Shown here piece by piece: positions 21,893 through 39,521 of a DNA stretch of 64,000 bases. Where the stretch lies: contig CAVVMJ010000010.1 in assembly GCA_963749445.1 (NCBI GenBank), forward strand, positions 254,021 to 318,020. The letters are read 5' to 3'. Both the position numbers and the translations under genes were made by a program. The notes under the pieces are model-generated. The model saw only the letters and a program-made list of their open reading frames with translations, was not told where the DNA came from and did no database searches. This stretch comes from an uncultured bacterium (lineage in GTDB: Bacteria; Patescibacteriota; Doudnabacteria; UBA920). Position 1 is the stretch's first letter; every line of letters starts with the position of its first letter.

Positions 21893-21956
21893 AGGTCGCG
21901 GTATTTCCCGCCAGAGGCGGGTCCGCCTTTGGCGGAAATTAACCAAATTTTATAAT

Positions 21957-23221: not shown

Positions 23222-25168
23222 TTGGTTTTAAGCATTAAACAAATGACTAAACCTGCCAAAAAGGCGAGGCCGCTGAAGAGACGGTCCAAAAAAATCGTTC
23301 GCAAGGCTATCCGCAAAGCCGGCAAAACACACGGCGCCTGGCATAATTTTTTTGAAATTCAAGTTAGCAGCGCCATAGCGCTAGTTTTGTGTCTTTCGAT
23401 CGCCGGCACGGCGGCCACCGCTGTCCTGCCCGCTTATAACGAGTTGGCCGATACGGGCCTTGTTTTAGCTTACGCCGCCTTGCCCCATCACCACACACAA
23501 GCTAGCCCGCAAGTGCTCGGCACAAGCACGACAACGACTGCGGCGCCGGCCCAAAAGCCAACGATGATGCAAGCCGCCGACGTTGAAGTGTCCCCTGCCC
23601 AGGACTTGCCCGCTGACGTAGGCGTGTACTTTTGGGACGGCCAGCTGGACAACGTCCCGGCCGGACAAATGCTAGCCAAAGGACAAGAACTGGCAGACAG
23701 TTTGGGAGTTAAAACTCTCCGCATTTTCATGTCGCCGAAATCGGACATAGATTATTCCATATCGAATAAATGCATCAGTAATTTTACCCTGGCCAAACTG
23801 GCGGCGCGCAGCGATTTTAAGGCCATTTTGAGAGACCCGCAATTTCAAACCATCATCATCACCGCCTACGACGGAACGACTTTTGGCAATTGCGTGAAAA
23901 AAAATTACATGATTCCGACATTTTTAACCCCAACCAAGCTGGCCAGCGTCCAAACCGAATACCGCGGCCTGGCAACCTATTTAAAACAGTTCAATAAAAC
24001 TTTCATTATAGACGCTTGGGAGGGCGACAACGATTTATACTGCGGCGACGCTTTTGACGCCACGCCCGGCAGCTGCCCGGGCATAAACGACAGAATCACC
24101 GGTTATACCAAATGGATGCAGGCGCGGGCGGCGGGAATTAAATCGGCCAAAACCGCAAACGTATTTAGCGCCATGGAATTCAACAACGTCCATTCGCTGC
24201 CGGACCAGGGAATGCCGAACATTCTTTATAATGTCCTGCCTAACGTGGATGTGGATTATTATTCCTATTCTTCCTACGAGTCCATTAACGTGTCAGCCGC
24301 ACAGCTGGCCACGGACATTGACGGCATAAGGGCATCGCTGTCCGGCTACGGCAAAGACCCGAGTCATTTGTTCATTGGGGAATTCGGTTTTGACTCCGAA
24401 ATCTTTGGCAAGGACGTGGCGGCGCAAAAAGTCGCGGAAACTATTGCCGTAGCCAGGCAAAAAAACATTCCTTACTCCATTCTTTGGAACCTAATAGACA
24501 ACCCGACCTTGGGCGCGTTTGATACCGGTGGAAATTTGACGGCTTACGGAAAAGCTTTAAGCGCCAGCCTTCCCGATCCCCCAACCCTGGACGCGGCACA
24601 GGGCTATAATACCCAAACCGGCCAGTATACCGATGGCTTTGGTTACGACAATGAATATCTGATTGCTTACGGCAATTTTTCCCAGACCGGCAATACCGTA
24701 TACGTCGGCGGCGTGGCCTTTACTCCCGACTATGAAGGCGCCAACCAAATCAACGTCAAACTGGACAATACCCGCCTAAACGCCGGCGACAGCAGCAACC
24801 AAGTCCAGGTTTATGTCTCCGACGCGGATGGACAAACCAGTTCACCTGCAACTTTCATCCTGGCTCCCGAAAACGCCATCGTTTACGCCGAAGGCTACGA
24901 CGCCCAAAGCGGCCAGTCTTCAGCCGGTTCGGCCGACGTTAGCGAATACCTCCTGTTGTTCGGAAACTTCGTTCCCAGCGGCAATTCCGTTTATATCAAC
25001 GGCACTGAATTCACCCCAATGTTTCAGAGCGGCATGGAACTTGTGGTGCCTTTGCAAAACAGCGGCAAAATCCAAGCCAGCCTAAGCGGTACGCCGGCGT
25101 CCGTGTACGTTATAAACAGCCTCGGCCGCACGCCAGAGGTTACGGTAAAATTTTATTTGGCCAAATAG
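23222..25168 (+). CDS. large secreted hypothetical protein, possibly a TIM-barrel glycoside-hydrolase-like domain (weak), with two tandem C-terminal beta-domain repeats
   Basis: 648 aa. N-terminal basic segment and a TM/signal anchor. Internal tandem repeat (YTDGFGYDNEYLIAYGNFSQTGNTVYVGGVAFTP / SADVSEYLLLFGNFVPSGNSVYINGTEFTP). The true start may be the internal M. Confidence 0.4.
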   Translation: MVLSIKQMTKPAKKARPLKRRSKKIVRKAIRKAGKTHGAWHNFFEIQVSSAIALVLCLSIAGTAATAVLPAYNELADTGLVLAYAALPHHHTQASPQVLGTSTTTTAAPAQKPTMMQAADVEVSPAQDLPADVGVYFWDGQLDNVPAGQMLAKGQELADSLGVKTLRIFMSPKSDIDYSISNKCISNFTLAKLAARSDFKAILRDPQFQTIIITAYDGTTFGNCVKKNYMIPTFLTPTKLASVQTEYRGLATYLKQFNKTFIIDAWEGDNDLYCGDAFDATPGSCPGINDRITGYTKWMQARAAGIKSAKTANVFSAMEFNNVHSLPDQGMPNILYNVLPNVDVDYYSYSSYESINVSAAQLATDIDGIRASLSGYGKDPSHLFIGEFGFDSEIFGKDVAAQKVAETIAVARQKNIPYSILWNLIDNPTLGAFDTGGNLTAYGKALSASLPDPPTLDAAQGYNTQTGQYTDGFGYDNEYLIAYGNFSQTGNTVYVGGVAFTPDYEGANQINVKLDNTRLNAGDSSNQVQVYVSDADGQTSSPATFILAPENAIVYAEGYDAQSGQSSAGSADVSEYLLLFGNFVPSGNSVYINGTEFTPMFQSGMELVVPLQNSGKIQASLSGTPASVYVINSLGRTPEVTVKFYLAK

Positions 25169-25206: not shown

Positions 25207-25309
25207 ACTGGATGTTTCCGCCAGAGGCGGATCTCAGCCGAAGGCTGACCAGCCTCTGGCTGGCGCAACCAACTTTGGCGGAAAAATATCATTATGATAA
25301 AATGCCTAT

Positions 25310-26227
25310 ATGGCTTCGGAACCCACAATCTGTTTCGGCCAACAACCTGCCGGGTTTTTCCCCAAGCGGTTTTTGGCGGCCAAAATCAATACCGCAAAAA
25401 AATTGCGCGATGAAATCGGCGGCAAGGTCGTCTTTTTTTATCACGACAGCGATGCCGACTATCGAGAAACGATTACGATTATGCGCGACCGAACGACCGG
25501 CGCGGAAGTCCGCTTAAATTTTACCCAGGAAAACAAACTGCAAAAAAAATTCTCCCCGCTTTACTTAAAAAGAATCCCTGCGGGCTGGAAAGGAGAAATA
25601 TTAAAACAGCTTCCGCGCTTTGCCGACAAGCCGCTGATAGATATTTTTACATCCACCGATGAAAAAACCGCAGCCGATTTTTGCCTGGAAATGTACCGCA
25701 AAATGAGATTACTTGAAAGAATTGGAATTTTAAGATCATCTGACAAAAATTTTAGGCAGAAAGCCCAAGACCTTGCCATAGACTACTTTGCCGATATAGA
25801 ATACCAGGGCGAAGTTGTGCGGGCCAAGGTTGAATCATTGCAAACTCCAACCACCTCCCCCCGCTTCGCGGGGTACTCCTCCTTAAAAAAGGAGGAGAGG
25901 CTCCGCACTTCATCGGATATTTCGGATGACCGCGGAGCTTCCCCTCCTACCAAGGAGGGGTGGACGCCGGAGGCGGACGGGGTGGTTGGAGTTCTCCACG
26001 AAGGCGGCAATAAATTTATCCGCTTTCCGATAAACCAGCCCATCCAAAAATCGCAAAAATCCCCCAACCGAGACCAAAGGTTTGCCTGGATGCAGTCAGT
26101 GATAAATTGCACCCACTACATTTACGGCGAAGGCGAAAAGGAATACCTGGATATTTCTAAATTTCCCGATATCAAATTCATTGACCGCGAAAAAATCGAC
26201 GACCCAAGTTATGCATGGTTAGGTTAA
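25310..26227 (+). CDS. BshC-like protein (short form) carrying an in-frame GC-rich repeat insertion
   Basis: 305 aa. The N-terminal segment ICFGQQPAGFF ... VVFFYHDSDADYRE resembles the BshC motifs ITGQQAGL and VFWVAGEDHDFAE. The family-B repeat at 25850..25998 is embedded in-frame. It sits directly upstream of bshB- and bshA-like genes. Confidence 0.4.
   Translation: MASEPTICFGQQPAGFFPKRFLAAKINTAKKLRDEIGGKVVFFYHDSDADYRETITIMRDRTTGAEVRLNFTQENKLQKKFSPLYLKRIPAGWKGEILKQLPRFADKPLIDIFTSTDEKTAADFCLEMYRKMRLLERIGILRSSDKNFRQKAQDLAIDYFADIEYQGEVVRAKVESLQTPTTSPRFAGYSSLKKEERLRTSSDISDDRGASPPTKEGWTPEADGVVGVLHEGGNKFIRFPINQPIQKSQKSPNRDQRFAWMQSVINCTHYIYGEGEKEYLDISKFPDIKFIDREKIDDPSYAWLG
25850..25998. repeat. 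GC-rich palindromic repeat, family B (copy B1), inserted in-frame in a CDS
   Basis: Shares CAAGGAGGGGTGGACGCCG.AGGCGGACGG ... GGGGTGGTTGGA with 28455..28550, and AAGCCTTGGCGA.GG.GGGGGTG with 37985..38075. Has internal dyads (ctcctccttaaaaaaggaggag). Confidence 0.7.
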
Positions 26228-26310
26228 GGATTACGGATTAATACGGATATACAGATAACTGCAGTATCCGTAATCCGTATATCCGTATTAAATCAGTAAT
26301 CTATAACCCT

Positions 26311-27003
26311 ATGAAAATCCTCGCAATCGGCGCGCACCCCGACGACGTGGAGTTCGGCGCCGCTCCGCTTTTAATCAAGGAAATCCAAAAAGGCAACCAG
26401 GCCAAAATCGCGGTGTGTTCTTTGGGCGAGGCCGGCACCAGCGGCACGCCCCAAGGCCGCAAAAAAGAAGCAACCGATGCGGCTAACGCCATCGGCGCGG
26501 AAATTGAATTCCTAAATTTAGGCGGCGACTGCCACATAGAATGCAATCCGCGAAACGGTTTTAAAATTGCCGCGATTTTAAGAAAATTTAAACCTAACAT
26601 TGTGCTTGCGCCGTCGCTGATGGAAAACCAGCATCCCGACCATTTGAATTTGGCAAAACTCACCCGCGATGCCTGCAGATTCGCGCGCTACGGCGGATTA
26701 AAAGAACTTAAAAGCTTACCGACGCACAAGGTCGGTATGTTGTATTATTACGGTTCCAGCGCAGAATGGGACAAAAAACCGGACCTTTTGGTTGATGTCA
26801 CGGACGTGGAAAGGCAGTGGCAAAAGGCCATGGCCTGCCACAAGAGCCAAATGAAAACCAAACAATACATAGATTTAATTTTTAGCAAATCGCGGGCACT
26901 CGGCGCTTCCTGCGGCGTCAAATACGCGGTGGGGCTTTATTCCAACGATCCGATAAGGCTTGATAGGCTTTCCGATATTACTCTGTCTTCAAGAAATTAT
27001 TAA
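26311..27003 (+). CDS. bshB: LmbE/PIG-L family N-acetylglucosaminyl deacetylase, BshB1-like
   Basis: HPDDVEFG metal-site motif and HPDH. Collinear similarity to B. subtilis BshB1 (YpjG). Confidence 0.7.
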   Translation: MKILAIGAHPDDVEFGAAPLLIKEIQKGNQAKIAVCSLGEAGTSGTPQGRKKEATDAANAIGAEIEFLNLGGDCHIECNPRNGFKIAAILRKFKPNIVLAPSLMENQHPDHLNLAKLTRDACRFARYGGLKELKSLPTHKVGMLYYYGSSAEWDKKPDLLVDVTDVERQWQKAMACHKSQMKTKQYIDLIFSKSRALGASCGVKYAVGLYSNDPIRLDRLSDITLSSRNY

Positions 27004-27096
27004 TATGAGATACCAATATACTAATACATGCGAATAATACTAATCAGTTTGCATTCGTATTATTAGTATCATTAGTACCATTGGTATATTAGTATC

Positions 27097-28230
27097 ATGA
27101 CTATGAAAATCGGCATTGTCTGCTGGCCTTCCATCGGCGGCAGCGGCGTGGTGGCCACCAATTTGGGCAATGAATTGGCCCGGTTAGGGCACCGGGTGCA
27201 TTTTATTTCCTACGAAAGGCCGTTTTTGCTCAACTTGCGGGCCAAAAACGTGTTTTTCCACCAGGTCAAAATAAACGAGTATTCGCTTTTTAAATATCCC
27301 GACTACACCCTGCCTTTGGCGGAAACCATTGTCAACGTCCAAGAAAAATATGGCTTGGATGTTTTGCACGTGCACTACGCGGTGCCGCACGCCACAGCCG
27401 CGCTTTTGGCGCGCCGCATTATGAGGCAAACCAACATTCCCCTGCCTAAGATAGTCACCACCCTGCACGGCACGGATATTACCCTGTTCGCCAGCGACAA
27501 AAGCATGTTTTCCACCATCAAATATTCCATTGAGCGCTCGCACTGCGTGACCGCGGTTTCGCAAAATTTAAAAAACCAGACCGTCAAAATTTTCAGGATC
27601 CAAAAGCCAATCCATGTAATTTATAATTTTTATAATCCGGTTTTAGTTAAAATTTCGCGCGAAAAAGTTAGACGACGGCTAAAAATCAAACCCGACGATT
27701 TCCTCGCCATCCATTTATCCAACCTCCGCCCGGTCAAGCGCATTCCGGACTTGCTTAAAATTGCCGCGCTGCTGAAAAAACAACGTAAATTTAAATTGCT
27801 AATTCTGGCCGGCGAGCCGTTTGCCAAGTACCGGCCTCTGGTAAAAAAATTGCGGCTGAATAATGTTTTGGTCAGAGAAAACGTCAAAGATATTCAAAAT
27901 TATTTAAACGCGTCCGATGCCGGCATTTACACTTCGCAGGACGAAAGCTTCGGCATGGGCATTTTGGAAACTATGTCTTACGGCAAACCGGTGCTGGCCA
28001 CGCGCGCCGGCGGCATCCCGGAAGTTATGCGCGACAAAATTGACGGATTTTTGCTCAAAATCGGCGACACCAAAAGTTTTGCGCAAAAATTGGAATTGCT
28101 AATGAATAACCCCGGGCTCACAAAAAAACTCGGCCAAAATGCCGGGTTGCGGGCCAAAGAAAAATTTTCCGCCGGCGTAATAGTAAAAGATTACGTCAAA
28201 CTCTATACCCGTACCTGCGGCAAATTTTAA
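27097..28230 (+). CDS. bshA: GT4 glycosyltransferase, BshA-like
   Basis: N-terminal MKIGIVCWPSIGGSGVVATNLGNELARLGHRVHFIS closely matches the BshA N-terminus. C-terminal GT4 EX7E region (ESFGMGILETMSYGKPVLA). Confidence 0.7.
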   Translation: MTMKIGIVCWPSIGGSGVVATNLGNELARLGHRVHFISYERPFLLNLRAKNVFFHQVKINEYSLFKYPDYTLPLAETIVNVQEKYGLDVLHVHYAVPHATAALLARRIMRQTNIPLPKIVTTLHGTDITLFASDKSMFSTIKYSIERSHCVTAVSQNLKNQTVKIFRIQKPIHVIYNFYNPVLVKISREKVRRRLKIKPDDFLAIHLSNLRPVKRIPDLLKIAALLKKQRKFKLLILAGEPFAKYRPLVKKLRLNNVLVRENVKDIQNYLNASDAGIYTSQDESFGMGILETMSYGKPVLATRAGGIPEVMRDKIDGFLLKIGDTKSFAQKLELLMNNPGLTKKLGQNAGLRAKEKFSAGVIVKDYVKLYTRTCGKF

Positions 28231-28295
28231 TAAAAAATTTTCTTCCGCTAAAATTTTATTACGACTTTTGCCGCAATTGCGGCAAAAGTCGTAAT

Positions 28296-29048
28296 TTATT
28301 TCGTATTCCATTCAATCAACTTGCCTGCCTGAATTTCAACCGGATCCGCTTTGCGTAAATTTTTTAGCTGCTGGCTGTTTAAAATTTTATAGTGTTTCGC
28401 TTTATCCAAATAATCCGGCAGATCCGCCAAATCCTTTTCCGTGGTGCGCCAATCAGCGCTTCCGCTCCCCTTCTTTTCAAGGAGGGGTGGACGCCGCAGG
28501 CGGACGGCTTGTCCTCCGAAGCCTTGGCGAAGGTGGGGGTGGTTGGAACTAAACGGGTGTTTATCGAAAAATCTCAGATCAAACGGCGCGGAGTATTCCC
28601 GCAGCGTCTTTCTGCCGCTGTCCAAAAAATATTCGTGGAAATACGACAACGACAATTCACGGATAGTTTTATATATCGGTTCGCGATAACGCAGCACCGC
28701 GTGGTTGGTTTTGCTAATCGCGCCCCAGCAGCCGAACTGCTTAAACAAGGCCACTACGTGATCTAAATCGTCATCTGTCGAACGTAAATCCAGTAAAAAC
28801 GGCTTATACCCATGAAATTCCAAAATTGCCGCGGCCAAAAGCGCGCCTTCCATACAGTGGGCTTTACCGATTTTTAAAACCTCCCGCGGGCTGCGGCACT
28901 CCACGCCGTCCTTGGCCGGATTATGCCTAATTTTAAACGCCAAAAAATCCTGAATTTTTTTGGGCGAATCCAGACTTTTGAATACTTTTATTTCCCGAGG
29001 TGTATAAAGAAGCATTTTGTGCCTGATTCTGTTTGTGACGGCCGTCAC
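28296..29048 (-). CDS. hypothetical protein with a possible papain/transglutaminase-like Cys-His core; contains an in-frame family-B repeat
   Basis: 250 aa with a GKAHCMEGALLAAAIL motif. The repeat at 28455..28550 is embedded in opposite orientation to copy B1. The N-terminus overlaps a perfect palindrome, so the true start is probably the internal MLLYTP. Confidence 0.4.
   Translation of the reverse strand: MTAVTNRIRHKMLLYTPREIKVFKSLDSPKKIQDFLAFKIRHNPAKDGVECRSPREVLKIGKAHCMEGALLAAAILEFHGYKPFLLDLRSTDDDLDHVVALFKQFGCWGAISKTNHAVLRYREPIYKTIRELSLSYFHEYFLDSGRKTLREYSAPFDLRFFDKHPFSSNHPHLRQGFGGQAVRLRRPPLLEKKGSGSADWRTTEKDLADLPDYLDKAKHYKILNSQQLKNLRKADPVEIQAGKLIEWNTK
28455..28550. repeat. GC-rich palindromic repeat, family B (copy B2), in-frame within a CDS
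   Basis: See 25850..25998. Confidence 0.7.
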
Positions 29049-36482: not shown

Positions 36483-36753
36483 TTTAGATGATACTGATAT
36501 ACGGATTAATACGGATGATACCGATAATACTAATACGGTTAAATATCCGTATTATCGGTATTATCAGTATGCATCAGTATATCGGTATCTCATGTATATT
36601 ATAGCAAATTATTGACATTATTGTAAATTAATGCTATATTTTAAGCTACTTCCCGAAAAGTAGCGCGGGATTTTTTAGTGAACTAATTAAAAACAATTTC
36701 GAATTGCGTATTACGAATTCTTAATCCGTAATGCGTAATCCGTAATACTCAAA

Positions 36754-38706
36754 ATGAAAAGGGATAACATACGAAACATCGCCATTATCGCCCACGTGGA
36801 CCACGGCAAGACTACGCTGGTGGATGCCATGCTAAAGCAAACCCACAGCATCAAAGACGACGCCGCGGATTTGGTAATGGACAGTATGGATTTGGAGCGC
36901 GAGCGCGGCATTACTATCAAAGCAAAAAATGCATCTCTGATATATAATGGGGTAAAAATAAATATTGTAGATACGCCAGGCCACGCGGATTTTGGCGGCG
37001 AAGTGGAGAGAACTTTAAAAATGGCCGACGGCGTCCTGCTTTTGGTGGACGCCAAAGAAGGCCCAATGCCCCAAACCAAATTCGTGCTCAAAAAAGCTTT
37101 GGAGCTCGGACTTAAAGCCATTGTCGTCATCAATAAAGTGGACAAGCCCGACGCCCAGGTTGACCACAGTGTCAATCATACTTTTGATTTGTTCGTCAAA
37201 CTAAACGCCACCCACAACCAATTGGATTTTCCGATTATTTATGCTTCGGGGGTAAGGGGTCTGGCGGATTTGAATTTGGAAAATCTTTTGGAAAAAATCT
37301 CCGCCCAAGGCGGATCCGCCTCCGGCGGAAAATACTCTGGCGAACCCGACGTCTCTCCCCTGTTTGACGCCATCATCAAATACATCCCCGCCCCGGAAGT
37401 GGAAATGGAAGATGCCTTTGCCGTGCAAATTTTGGCTTTGGCTTACGACAACTACTTGGGCCGCCTGGGCATCGGCAAAGTGTTTTCGGGGAGCTGTAAA
37501 AAAAACCAGAACGCCATGCTGATTAAACAGAGCGGCGAGCGGATGACCTCTAAAATTACTTCCCTGCAAATGTACGAAGGCTTAAAACAAATTGACGTGG
37601 AAGAAGCCGTGGCCGGCGACATTGTGGCTTTTGGCGGCTTTGACGACATCCACATTGGCGACGTTTTAACCGATCCCCTAAATCCCAAAACCCTGCCGCC
37701 CGTGGAAATTGAGCCGCCCACAATAAAGATGACCTTTGGCGTCAACACTTCCCCGTTTGCCGGCCGCGAAGGCAAGTATGTGACCTCGCGCCAGTTGCGC
37801 GAACGCTTAATTAAGGAACTGGAAACCAATGTGGCGCTAAAGGTCCAGGGCTTGGAACAGGGTTCGGATTCGTTTTTGGTGTCCGGCCGCGGCGAACTGC
37901 ATTTGGCGGTTTTAGTGGAAACCATGCGGCGCGAAGGTTTTGAACTGCAGGTTTCCCAACCCGAAGTTATCTACCATTATCAAAGGCCGGACGGTTCTTC
38001 GTCCCCTCTCCCTTTGGGAGAGGGCCAGCCTGCCCGCCAAAGCCTTGGCGACGGCGGGGGTGAGGGTTCGGAGAAAATGACAAAACTCGAGCCATACGAA
38101 ATTCTAACGATTGATGTCCCTTCCGAACACCAGGGCGTCGTAATTGAAGAACTCGGCAAGCGCGGCGGACAAATGCAAATCCTGGAAACCGGCCACGGCG
38201 GCGACGTGCACGCCGAATATTTAATCCCTACGCGTGGCTTGATTGGCTTAAAAAACCTGCTGATGACGCGCACCCGCGGCACCGTGGTCATAAATAATCT
38301 TTTTGACAGTTATAGGCCCGTGCACGACATAGACACCCGCAGCAACGAACACGGCAGCTTGATTGCCTCAGAGTCCGGCCAAAGCAACTCTTACGGCTTA
38401 AACAACGCCCAGCAGCGCGGCATGTTGTTTATCGGCCCGGCCGTTGACGTTTACGAGGGCATGGTGGTGGGCAAAAATTCCGTGGACAGCGATTTGGAAT
38501 TAAACGTCTGCCGCACCAAAAAACTCACCAACATCCGCTCCTCCAGCTCCGATGAAGCCATTATTTTAACTCCTCCGCGTCCGGTGGAACTGGACTTCGC
38601 TCTGGAATACATCGGCGCCGACGAGCTGGTAGAAGTTACGCCGCAGTCCATCAGGATAAGAAAGCGGATATTAAACGCCACCGAACGCAAACGCGCCGCG
38701 AAATAA
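36754..38706 (+). CDS. typA: translational GTPase TypA/BipA, with two in-frame insertions derived from repeat elements
   Basis: G1 AHVDHGKTT, G3 DTPGH, G4 NKVD. Collinear with E. coli BipA throughout. It is 650 aa rather than the usual about 605, because of inserts at about 37300..37340 (GGCGGATCCGCC palindrome, peptide AQGGSASGGKYSGEP) and about 37985..38075 (family-B repeat, peptide RPDGSSSPLPLGEGQPARQSLGDGGGEGSE). Confidence 0.9.
   Translation: MKRDNIRNIAIIAHVDHGKTTLVDAMLKQTHSIKDDAADLVMDSMDLERERGITIKAKNASLIYNGVKINIVDTPGHADFGGEVERTLKMADGVLLLVDAKEGPMPQTKFVLKKALELGLKAIVVINKVDKPDAQVDHSVNHTFDLFVKLNATHNQLDFPIIYASGVRGLADLNLENLLEKISAQGGSASGGKYSGEPDVSPLFDAIIKYIPAPEVEMEDAFAVQILALAYDNYLGRLGIGKVFSGSCKKNQNAMLIKQSGERMTSKITSLQMYEGLKQIDVEEAVAGDIVAFGGFDDIHIGDVLTDPLNPKTLPPVEIEPPTIKMTFGVNTSPFAGREGKYVTSRQLRERLIKELETNVALKVQGLEQGSDSFLVSGRGELHLAVLVETMRREGFELQVSQPEVIYHYQRPDGSSSPLPLGEGQPARQSLGDGGGEGSEKMTKLEPYEILTIDVPSEHQGVVIEELGKRGGQMQILETGHGGDVHAEYLIPTRGLIGLKNLLMTRTRGTVVINNLFDSYRPVHDIDTRSNEHGSLIASESGQSNSYGLNNAQQRGMLFIGPAVDVYEGMVVGKNSVDSDLELNVCRTKKLTNIRSSSSDEAIILTPPRPVELDFALEYIGADELVEVTPQSIRIRKRILNATERKRAAK
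37985..38075. repeat. GC-rich palindromic repeat, family B (copy B3), in-frame inside typA
   Basis: cccctctccctttgggagaggg dyad plus aagccttggcgacggcgggggtgagggttcgg, similar to copy B2. Confidence 0.6.
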
Positions 38707-38795: not shown

Positions 38796-39314
38796 TTACC
38801 ACTCCTTGTCGTCCGCGCTCGGGCCGTAAATTTTCGGCACCGCGATGTTGTTTAAGCGCATATAAACCGTAAGCTGGCCGCGGTGGTGGACCAAATGGTT
38901 AATAGTATCGCAGACAGTGTTCTTTTTGCTGTCTGTAGCCAAAACCTGATCTTTCATTTTTAAGGAAAAAGGCTTTTCCAAATCCGCGTCCGAAACTTTT
39001 TCCACGGCCCTCTTAGCTGCCGCGAGATTATTGTCAAAAAACTTGAGCATTTCTAAGGTCTTAGTTGGCCGCCCCATTTTAAACGTGGCAAAGTCAATAT
39101 CCCCTTTTTCAATAACGTGCGCGATCCACGCCGGAATACCGGCCACAGTTAAAACCAAATGGCCCATCTTCATGGACTTTTCGTGCGGCTTGTATTCATA
39201 CAAACTTTCCGGCACGCGCTCCAGACATTTCCTGCTGGCAGGCGCCTCGGCCTCCAGTTCCTTTAAATATAACCGTCCTAATGTATCGCTCATAATAGTC
39301 TCCTTTTCCGCCAA
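38796..39314 (-). CDS. DinB/YfiT-like (DinB_2) damage-inducible family protein
   Basis: 172 aa with the HLVHHRGQLTVYMRL motif. The true start may be the internal MSDTL. Confidence 0.6.
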   Translation of the reverse strand: MAEKETIMSDTLGRLYLKELEAEAPASRKCLERVPESLYEYKPHEKSMKMGHLVLTVAGIPAWIAHVIEKGDIDFATFKMGRPTKTLEMLKFFDNNLAAAKRAVEKVSDADLEKPFSLKMKDQVLATDSKKNTVCDTINHLVHHRGQLTVYMRLNNIAVPKIYGPSADDKEW

Positions 39315-39521
39315 AGACGGATCCGCCTTTGGCAGACTTTAATTTTTGATAATATTCTTCCAACGCTGTTCCAATAAATGGTTTGCCATATAAACGGCCC
39401 TAAAAATGTAAACGGATTCCGCGCGCCAACGTTACACATAAAGGAAGCTTTAACAAATTCAACAAAATCGCGTATCTGTAATATATGAAAGGTCGAAATT
39501 AATGTAGAAAGACATAAACTT

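What the first reader, a model, noticed from the sequence alone, without database searches (positions are those of the whole stretch)
25310..28230. Contiguous bshC-like / bshB / bshA cluster, with a short BshC homolog carrying a repeat insertion
A GT4 with a BshA-type N-terminus, an LmbE deacetylase collinear with BshB1, and an upstream ORF with BshC-like motifs (GQQ.G.F and V.FF.HD.DADY) form one three-gene unit. In Bacillus, bshC is unlinked. The BshC-like gene is only 305 aa, against about 540 for BshC, and about 45 aa of that come from the family-B repeat. Either this is a minimal low-molecular-weight-thiol pathway with a truncated or remodelled cysteine ligase, or the first gene is unrelated and the pair bshB/bshA serves a different GlcNAc-malate-type or glycoconjugate function.
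Basis: partly seen in the sequence, partly recalled or inferred. Interest (0 to 1): 0.5.

Follow-up and report, generated by a model that had tools for sequence, protein, structure and literature searches.

The report
Compact BshC-like enzyme beside bshB and bshA
A three-gene unit in this probable Candidatus Doudnabacteria genome encodes the first two bacillithiol-synthesis enzymes plus an unannotated, half-size relative of the third (BshC), and the same unit recurs in several phyla with no predicted protective thiol.

Summary
Three same-strand ORFs lie between a promoter-like site and a strong terminator: X (25310-26227), a BshB1-like deacetylase (26311-27003) and a BshA that passes NCBI's equivalog cutoff (27097-28230).

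That test was too strict:
- A statistically weak profile-profile alignment is collinear and matches BshC's invariant motifs.
- PF10079 is the only recurring weak Pfam hit.

X is not a truncation. It belongs to a conserved ~255-aa family in at least 583 species genomes: Patescibacteria, Verrucomicrobiota, Melainabacteria and single MAGs labelled Baltobacteraceae and Acidiferrales. Of 80 loci, 75 have bshB and/or bshA directly downstream. The family lacks BshC's N-terminal ~80 residues and its coiled-coil domain, and RefSeq calls it hypothetical.

The extra ~48 residues in this copy come from a 151-nt palindromic element in a disordered surface loop.

Best reading: a minimal cysteine-adding enzyme completing a bacillithiol-type pathway. 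The chemistry is inferred, not shown.

The parts
25275..25303 (+). Sigma-70-like promoter match (TTGGCG, 17 nt, TAAAAT, with TG) just upstream of the X start codon
   Evidence: Consensus scan only. The number of such sites in the region is not above the shuffled expectation, so this is a weak indication.
25310..26227 (+). X: compact BshC-like protein, 305 aa. It has the Rossmann-like (HUP-class) core only, without BshC's N-terminal ~80 aa and without the C-terminal coiled-coil.
25843..25993 (.). 151-nt palindromic repeat element inserted in frame in X (codons ~178-228). It is translated as a disordered loop between two beta strands.
   Evidence: Inverted repeat I3. Hairpin MFE -101.6 kcal/mol and a partial second copy at 28464-28511, within the 28444-28547 region. 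Absent from most homologues. AF2 pLDDT below 50 for residues 181-222.
26228..26302 (+). AT-rich hairpin in the X-bshB spacer with no T tail. It belongs to an 'ACGGAT'-rich repeat also seen at 36490-36589.
   Evidence: RNA fold -30.7 kcal/mol, z -6.25. Inverted repeat I1. Relatives have only 27-35 nt in this spacer.
26311..27003 (+). BshB1-like Zn deacetylase (PIG-L/LmbE), predicted to convert GlcNAc-malate to GlcN-malate
   Evidence: PF02585 E 3.8e-21. TIGR04001 at 149 bits, the best hit but below the 182.5 cutoff. Top PDB hits are BshB1 structures 6p2t and 2ixd, with the AHPDD and HPDH motifs aligned.
27097..28230 (+). BshA, a GT4 N-acetyl-alpha-D-glucosaminyl L-malate synthase
   Evidence: TIGR03999 equivalog at 402 bits against a 273.7 cutoff. 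The top PDB hits are all BshA (2jjm, 3mbo, 5d00, 6n1x, 6d9t; E 1e-83 to 1e-74); the next GT4 is at 1e-13.
28258..28295 (+). Intrinsic-terminator-like hairpin (17-bp stem plus T-rich tail) closing the unit, shared with the convergent gene

Best explanation
The unit X, bshB, bshA most likely encodes a complete bacillithiol-type pathway.

1. BshA joins UDP-GlcNAc to L-malate.
2. The BshB1-like deacetylase frees the glucosamine amine.
3. X is a ~255-aa minimal homologue of BshC. It keeps the Rossmann-like, class-I-aaRS-like core and the BshC signature residues (GQQ, K, D-H/A-D, E, S-x-D-x-x-x-R, M-Q, G-x-G-E-x-x-Y). It has no N-terminal extension and no coiled-coil dimerisation domain. It adds cysteine to GlcN-malate.

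Fold homology and gene linkage are shown. The substrate, the product and the activation chemistry are inferred, and they are unknown even for canonical BshC.

The 151-nt palindromic element is a passenger. It sits in a surface hairpin loop and leaves the fold intact.
For: **Fold**
- Two template-free AF2 models were built: this ORF (pLDDT 85) and the insertion-free homologue P0012 (pLDDT 95.8).
- In Foldseek, 4wbd is the only hit with E <= 0.001 (5.9e-8, probability 1.0).

**Sequence**
- hhalign of 42 diverse X proteins against a BshC alignment is collinear over X 1-230 and BshC 83-358, and aligns the invariant motifs of both families.
- PF10079 is the only Pfam family that recurs among members: 5 of 42, best E 8.8e-4.

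**Context**
- Of 80 species-genome loci, 65 are X-bshB-bshA, 5 are X-bshA and 5 are X-bshB followed by the contig end. Genes often overlap. Metagenome contigs show the same pattern.
- BshA passes the equivalog cutoff both here and in Horticoccus sp..

**No canonical BshC nearby**
- Neither a canonical BshC nor a fragment of one is found in the window or within 5 kb of any locus.

**Conservation**
- X proteins from Patescibacteria are 53-58% identical to those from Verrucomicrobiota. The diverse 42-sequence alignment has 19 invariant and ~50 nearly invariant columns.

**Literature**
- Verrucomicrobia have no predicted LMW thiol pathway (PMC6282198).
Against: - No significant sequence-profile match of this ORF to BshC: Pfam and NCBIfam give no hit, and neither phmmer nor hmmsearch finds anything in the PDB. 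hhalign gives probability 1.5-2.5% and E 0.02-0.03.
- A Bacillaceae BshC core HMM does not detect X at E <= 10.
- Two of BshC's three structural parts are missing.
- The deacetylase scores below the BshB1 cutoff.
- I could not check whether these genomes also carry a canonical bshC elsewhere.
- Outside Patescibacteria, X is linked even more tightly to an SSS-family symporter than to bshB or bshA. Two loci have SSS-X without bshB or bshA nearby. This leaves room for a different substrate.
- No biochemical data exist for any member of the family.
Confidence: 0.65

Rival explanations
1. X is a BshC-fold ligase that attaches something other than cysteine, or acts on an aglycone other than malate. 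The unit would then make a different glucosamine conjugate: a new LMW thiol variant or a non-thiol metabolite.
For: - Identity to BshC is only 16-18%.
- The deacetylase is below the BshB1 cutoff.
- In every non-Patescibacteria locus, an SSS symporter gene of unknown substrate abuts X. This hints at an imported co-substrate.
- The reaction of BshC itself is not defined (PMC5790435).
Against: - BshA scores far above the equivalog cutoff (402 against 273.7), and its only close PDB relatives are BshA enzymes.
- The polar residues invariant in BshC are retained in X.
Confidence: 0.2
2. X is unrelated in function to thiol synthesis. It would be a generic HUP-class nucleotide-binding protein that happens to sit beside a bshB/bshA-like pair serving cell-envelope glycoconjugate synthesis.
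For: - There is no significant sequence-profile hit.
- Two loci have X without bshB or bshA nearby.
Against: - The aligned region covers 91% of the protein, not just the nucleotide-binding half.
- Linkage to bshB and/or bshA holds in 75 of 80 loci from several phyla.
Confidence: 0.1
3. The window's copy of X is inactivated by the repeat insertion: a decaying gene in a reduced genome.
For: A 151-nt palindrome interrupts the coding sequence.
Against: - The reading frame is intact over 305 codons.
- All 62 columns invariant across the 32 aligned homologues are retained.
- Relatives at 69-80% identity carry an insertion at the same site and are also intact.
- AF2 folds the rest confidently, with the insert as a disordered loop between two strands.
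Confidence: 0.05

Closest known systems
BshC (YllA) of Bacillus subtilis, the putative bacillithiol cysteine-adding enzyme (PDB 4WBD; PF10079 plus PF24850; TIGR03998)
   Same: - Shared signature residues: GQQ, K, D-H-D, E, S-D-R, M-Q, G-x-G-E-x-x-Y.
- Genomic association with bshA and bshB.
   Different: - About 255 aa instead of ~540.
- No N-terminal ~80-residue segment and no C-terminal coiled-coil dimerisation domain.
- 16-18% identity; not detected by PF10079 or NCBIfam at their thresholds.
- Fused into one operon with bshB and bshA, whereas bshC is unlinked in Bacillus.
MshC, the mycothiol cysteine ligase (a CysRS paralogue)
   Same: It performs the analogous step, cysteine onto a glucosamine amine, and has a class I aaRS-type HUP fold. 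This comparison rests on established knowledge, not on a test here.
Class I lysyl-tRNA synthetase catalytic domain (PDB 1IRX)
   Different: No anticodon-binding domain, no aaRS signature motifs, 9-12% identity.
Rickettsia palindromic elements (RPEs), the nearest analogue for the insertion only
   Same: A short palindromic repeat inserted in frame into protein-coding genes and tolerated as an extra surface peptide. Two neighbouring genes here carry related copies.
   Different: Different organism group and no sequence relationship tested. Only two copies of this element were seen in the 64-kb window.

Membership tests
BshC (PF10079 / TIGR03998) | Significant match to the curated family profiles | tested here: not met
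   No Pfam or NCBIfam hit for the ORF at E <= 0.1. Among 42 family members, 5 hit PF10079 weakly (best E 8.8e-4). hhalign E 0.02-0.03.
BshC (PF10079 / TIGR03998) | Rossmann-like core fold of 4WBD | tested here: met
   [not shown]
BshC (PF10079 / TIGR03998) | Conserved signature residues (GGQQ, EDHD, MQ, GPGE..YW) | tested here: met
   These residues align with nearly invariant X-family residues in a collinear hhalign alignment. The statistical support for the alignment itself is weak.
BshC (PF10079 / TIGR03998) | C-terminal alpha-helical coiled-coil dimerisation domain (PF24850) | tested here: not met
   X ends right after the core. No match to the C-terminal (or N-terminal) part of BshC anywhere in the window, with filters off and E <= 10.
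BshC (PF10079 / TIGR03998) | Co-occurrence or co-localisation with bshA and bshB | tested here: met
   65 of 80 loci are X-bshB-bshA, and 75 of 80 have at least one of the two directly downstream.
BshC (PF10079 / TIGR03998) | Loss abolishes bacillithiol and causes GlcN-malate to accumulate | not testable with these tools
   Needs genetics and thiol analysis.
BshA (TIGR03999) | Full-length match above the equivalog cutoff | tested here: met
   402.4 bits against 273.7, residues 3-373 on model positions 1-373 of 375. The closest PDB entries are all BshA.
BshB1 (TIGR04001) | Full-length match above the equivalog cutoff | tested here: not met
   149.4 bits against 182.5. It is the best-scoring family and is collinear over 2-216. 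The Horticoccus orthologue scores 120.9.
BshB1 (TIGR04001) | PIG-L/LmbE fold motifs for Zn binding (AHPDD ... HPDH) | tested here: met
   The motifs align with BshB1 structures 6p2t and 2ixd. PF02585 E 3.8e-21.
Class I aminoacyl-tRNA synthetases | HIGH and KMSKS signature motifs, and an anticodon-binding domain | tested here: not met
   The sequence has GQQPxG where HIGH would sit (after strand 1) and G-x-G-E after the last core strand. The protein is a single domain. No aaRS Pfam hit.

The most novel reading that the evidence does not exclude
The ~255-aa X family is the real cysteine-adding enzyme of a portable bacillithiol cassette. The cassette is X-bshB-bshA in Patescibacteria and SSS-X-bshB-bshA elsewhere.

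If so, three things follow:
1. CPR bacteria, Verrucomicrobiota and Melainabacteria make a bacillithiol-type thiol. These lineages have no predicted LMW thiol or none reported in the literature searched.
2. BshC's coiled-coil and N-terminal domains are dispensable for catalysis.
3. The minimal enzyme, together with its invariably linked symporter, may point to the still unidentified activated substrate of the BshC reaction.
Probability: 0.55. Interest if true: 0.75.

Novelty: new variant of a known kind. Interest (0 to 1): 0.62.

Why it matters
The BshC step is the one reaction of bacillithiol synthesis that has never been reconstituted, and its activated cysteine donor is unknown (PMC5790435). 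A naturally minimal homologue would help in two ways. It defines the catalytic core, and it offers a simpler protein for biochemistry.

The family is unannotated. RefSeq calls it 'hypothetical protein', and it has no Pfam or NCBIfam model. Surveys that require a full-length BshC (PMC6282198; bioRxiv 10.1101/2025.07.06.663066) would therefore probably score these genomes as lacking the pathway. Hiras et al. list Verrucomicrobia among lineages with no predicted LMW thiol.

Recognising X would extend predicted bacillithiol-type redox buffering to Verrucomicrobiota, Melainabacteria, Patescibacteria and others. Some members are cultured (Horticoccus sp.), so the prediction can be tested directly.

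Tried and rejected
**Sequence searches that found nothing**
- Pfam and NCBIfam on the ORF.
- phmmer of the ORF and hmmsearch of a family profile against all PDB sequences.
- A Bacillaceae BshC HMM against all window and locus ORFs, and split N-terminal, core and C-terminal BshC HMMs against all window ORFs of at least 25 aa with filters off. Nothing was found, so there are no stray BshC fragments.

**Searches that stayed weak or did not bridge the families**
- hhalign of three successively more diverse X alignments against a BshC alignment gave E 0.019-0.034. The BshC side was limited to Bacillaceae, because only the best 120 hits are listed.
- A profile search of 1.84 billion representatives returned 241 hits at E <= 0.001. 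The 150 listed were mostly short fragments. Four longer proteins (325-475 aa) that I read are frameshifted or chimeric gene calls; one runs on into a bshB-like sequence. No ~540-aa BshC-length protein appeared among the 150 listed.
- A search from the most divergent member, P0270, found only 8 relatives and no link to BshC.

**Resources that were unavailable**
- The afdb50 fold library was not available.
- The window's own contig could not be retrieved by protein look-up.
- The BshC structure paper (PMC4303302) is not held. The domain description of BshC therefore rests on the 2018 review and on my own recollection.

**Readings rejected**
- 'Truncated or pseudogenised bshC' is rejected because ~255 aa is the conserved length across at least 583 genomes.
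- 'Chance juxtaposition' is rejected because of the conserved gene order.
Full report
**1. What is in the sequence**

The region holds three + strand ORFs:
- X, 25310-26227 (305 aa)
- a 230-aa ORF at 26311-27003
- a 377-aa ORF at 27097-28230

A promoter-like site lies at 25275-25303. A 17-bp-stem terminator at 28258-28295 closes the unit against a convergent gene. An AT-rich hairpin fills the X-bshB spacer (26228-26302; -30.7 kcal/mol, z -6.25).

The closest homologues are named Candidatus Doudnabacteria or Patescibacteria. The window therefore probably comes from a Doudnabacteria genome.

**2. The two downstream genes**

The 377-aa protein matches TIGR03999 (BshA) end to end at 402.4 bits against a cutoff of 273.7. 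Its only close PDB relatives are the BshA enzymes of B. anthracis, B. subtilis and S. aureus (E 1e-83 to 1e-74); the next GT4 is at 1e-13.

The 230-aa protein is a PIG-L/LmbE deacetylase (PF02585, E 3.8e-21). Its best family is BshB1 (TIGR04001), collinear over the full length, but at 149.4 bits it falls below the 182.5 cutoff. Its best PDB matches are BshB1 structures 6p2t and 2ixd, with the AHPDD and HPDH motifs aligned.

So bshA is a member by the curated test. bshB is BshB1-like but divergent.

**3. The first gene at sequence level**

X has no Pfam or NCBIfam hit and no PDB sequence hit, either alone or as a family profile.

X is nevertheless not an orphan. About 3400 clustered proteins match it, typically 254-260 aa, none with a Pfam domain, and all named 'hypothetical' where named at all.

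The alignment shows 62 invariant columns. These include CFGQQ-G-FPK, F-HDSD-DYRET, RLNF-Q-NK-QK, LH-GG and WM…Y..G..E..Y.

Weak but consistent pointers to BshC exist:
- PF10079 is the only Pfam family that recurs among members: 2 of 32 and 5 of 42 with best E 8.8e-4.
- hhalign against a BshC alignment gives only E 0.019-0.034 and probability 1.5-2.5%.
- The alignment is nonetheless collinear over X 1-230 and BshC 83-358. It puts GQQ on GGQQ, K on K105, D-H/A-D..E on D134-H135-D136..E139, S-D-R on S232-D234-R238, M-Q on M337-Q338, and G-x-G-E-x-x-Y on G350-x-G352-E353-x-x-Y356. Nearly all of these are invariant or nearly invariant in the BshC alignment.

**4. Structure**

I built two template-free AlphaFold models: the window ORF (pLDDT 85, pTM 0.81) and the insertion-free homologue P0012 (pLDDT 95.8, pTM 0.91).

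| Search | Query model | Top hit | Score | Next hit |
|---|---|---|---|---|
| Foldseek, whole PDB | window ORF | 4wbd, B. subtilis BshC | E 5.9e-8, probability 1.0; the only hit with E <= 0.001 | class I aaRS, E ~0.1 |

The match covers 91% of the protein. X is therefore the BshC core. It lacks BshC's first ~80 residues and the C-terminal coiled-coil (PF24850), and no fragment of either is present in the window.

From the model's secondary structure, GQQPxG follows strand 1, which is the position of HIGH in class I aaRS. G-x-G-E follows the last core strand, which is the KMSKS position. This placement is an inference from topology, not a test.

**5. Context elsewhere**

A scan of one genome per species found at least 583 genomes encoding an X relative. 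The best 80 loci include:
- Doudnabacteria and other Patescibacteria
- Verrucomicrobiota: Opitutaceae, including cultured Horticoccus sp. and MAGs labelled Lacunisphaera and Opitutus, plus Limisphaerales and Chthoniobacterales
- Melainabacteria / Obscuribacterales
- one Baltobacteraceae MAG and one Acidiferrales MAG

My own ORF and phmmer analysis of those 80 loci gave the following:

| Arrangement downstream of X | Loci |
|---|---|
| X-bshB-bshA | 65 |
| X-bshA | 5 |
| X-bshB, then contig end | 5 |
| Contig ends at X | 2 |
| Other | 3 |

Genes often overlap. In Horticoccus, the symporter gene, X and bshB overlap successively. Metagenome contigs show the same arrangement.

No canonical BshC lies within 5 kb of any locus. 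Horticoccus BshA also passes the equivalog cutoff at 401.9 bits, and its X is RefSeq 'hypothetical protein' WP_414664224.1.

In every non-Patescibacteria locus, an SSS-family symporter gene abuts the start of X. This holds even in the two loci without bshB or bshA nearby.

**6. The insertion**

Positions 25843-25993 form a 151-nt near-perfect palindrome (-101.6 kcal/mol; inverted repeat I3). It covers codons ~178-228.

Most homologues lack it. Relatives at 69-80% identity share an insertion at the same site.

In the model it is a disordered loop (residues 181-222, pLDDT below 50) between strands 168-176 and 225-232. All family-invariant residues are retained.

A partial second copy lies in the 28444-28547 region, in frame in the convergent neighbour gene. 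That gene is 250 aa against 205-207 aa in its orthologues, and the extra 34 residues sit at that position.

**7. Interpretation**

Shown:
- X has the BshC core fold.
- X belongs to a large, well-conserved short family.
- X is embedded in a conserved operon with a bona fide bshA and a BshB1-like deacetylase.
- No canonical bshC is nearby.

Inferred:
- X catalyses the cysteine-adding step.
- The unit therefore makes bacillithiol or a close variant.

The reaction of BshC itself has never been reconstituted (PMC5790435). The chemistry therefore cannot be specified further than 'HUP-class, probably nucleotide-dependent carboxyl activation'.

Rivals are a different ligated group or aglycone (0.2), an unrelated function (0.1) and an inactivated copy (0.05).

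**8. Novelty**

I found no paper linking bacillithiol to Patescibacteria/CPR, Doudnabacteria, Saccharibacteria, Opitutus/Opitutaceae or Melainabacteria. I also found none describing a short BshC.

[quoted passage not shown] Their survey and a 2025 survey required BshC hits of similar length, and such a filter would probably miss X.

I classify this as a new variant of a known kind: a minimal, unannotated BshC-like family in a portable cassette.

The main gaps are three: no biochemical evidence, weak sequence-level statistics, and no genome-wide test of whether X and canonical bshC are mutually exclusive.

Noticed in passing
window 25843-25993 and 28444-28547 (ORF 28296-29048, - strand): A palindromic repeat family sits in frame inside two neighbouring protein-coding genes. 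X gains ~48 aa. The convergent 250-aa gene (weak transglutaminase-like DUF553 match) gains 34 aa relative to its 205-207-aa orthologues in L001 and L002. This resembles the behaviour of Rickettsia palindromic elements, here in a probable Doudnabacteria genome.
   Followed up: partly
alignment A1: Patescibacteria homologues of X such as P0003, P0005, P0036, P0093, P0104, P0110, P0120: X homologues in Patescibacteria carry different in-frame insertions at four or more other sites (for example 'ADLSAEALAKA', and 30-70-aa low-complexity blocks). Lengths range from 254 to 368 aa. The Verrucomicrobiota and Melainabacteria copies are uniformly ~250 aa. Within the shared insertion, close relatives differ in ways that look like compensated frameshifts. 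This suggests the DNA palindrome, not the peptide, is what is conserved.
   Followed up: no
L031-L087 (for example L071 3271-4992, L086 311-2011, L087 3262-5004): Outside Patescibacteria, an SSS-family sodium:solute symporter gene of unknown substrate always lies immediately upstream of X and often overlaps its start. This gives a four-gene unit, SSS-X-bshB-bshA. In L068 and L085, SSS-X occurs without bshB or bshA nearby. No such gene is present in the window.
   Followed up: partly
window 26228-26302 and 36490-36589: An 'ACGGAT'-rich AT-rich hairpin repeat family. One copy fills the X-bshB spacer (z -6.25), which is only 27-35 nt long in related genomes.
   Followed up: partly
window 25211-25270; also 21904-21942, 37297-37335, 39304-39342: Another short GC-rich repeat family ('TTTCCGCCAGAGGCGGATC...GGCGGAAA'; D1). 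By eye, a similar sequence lies between the upstream gene's terminator-like hairpin and the X promoter-like site.
   Followed up: no
L005 (protein P0270): A divergent X-like protein (31% identity) that lacks the GQQ and HDSD motifs. It sits between Dph6- and TruD-like genes (archaeal-looking context) with no bshB or bshA adjacent. Only 8 relatives were found.
   Followed up: partly
window 23222-25168 (+): A 648-aa ORF upstream of X with no confident Pfam domain (weak TIG match only). The equivalent upstream genes differ between related genomes (L001, L002), so it is not part of the unit.
   Followed up: no
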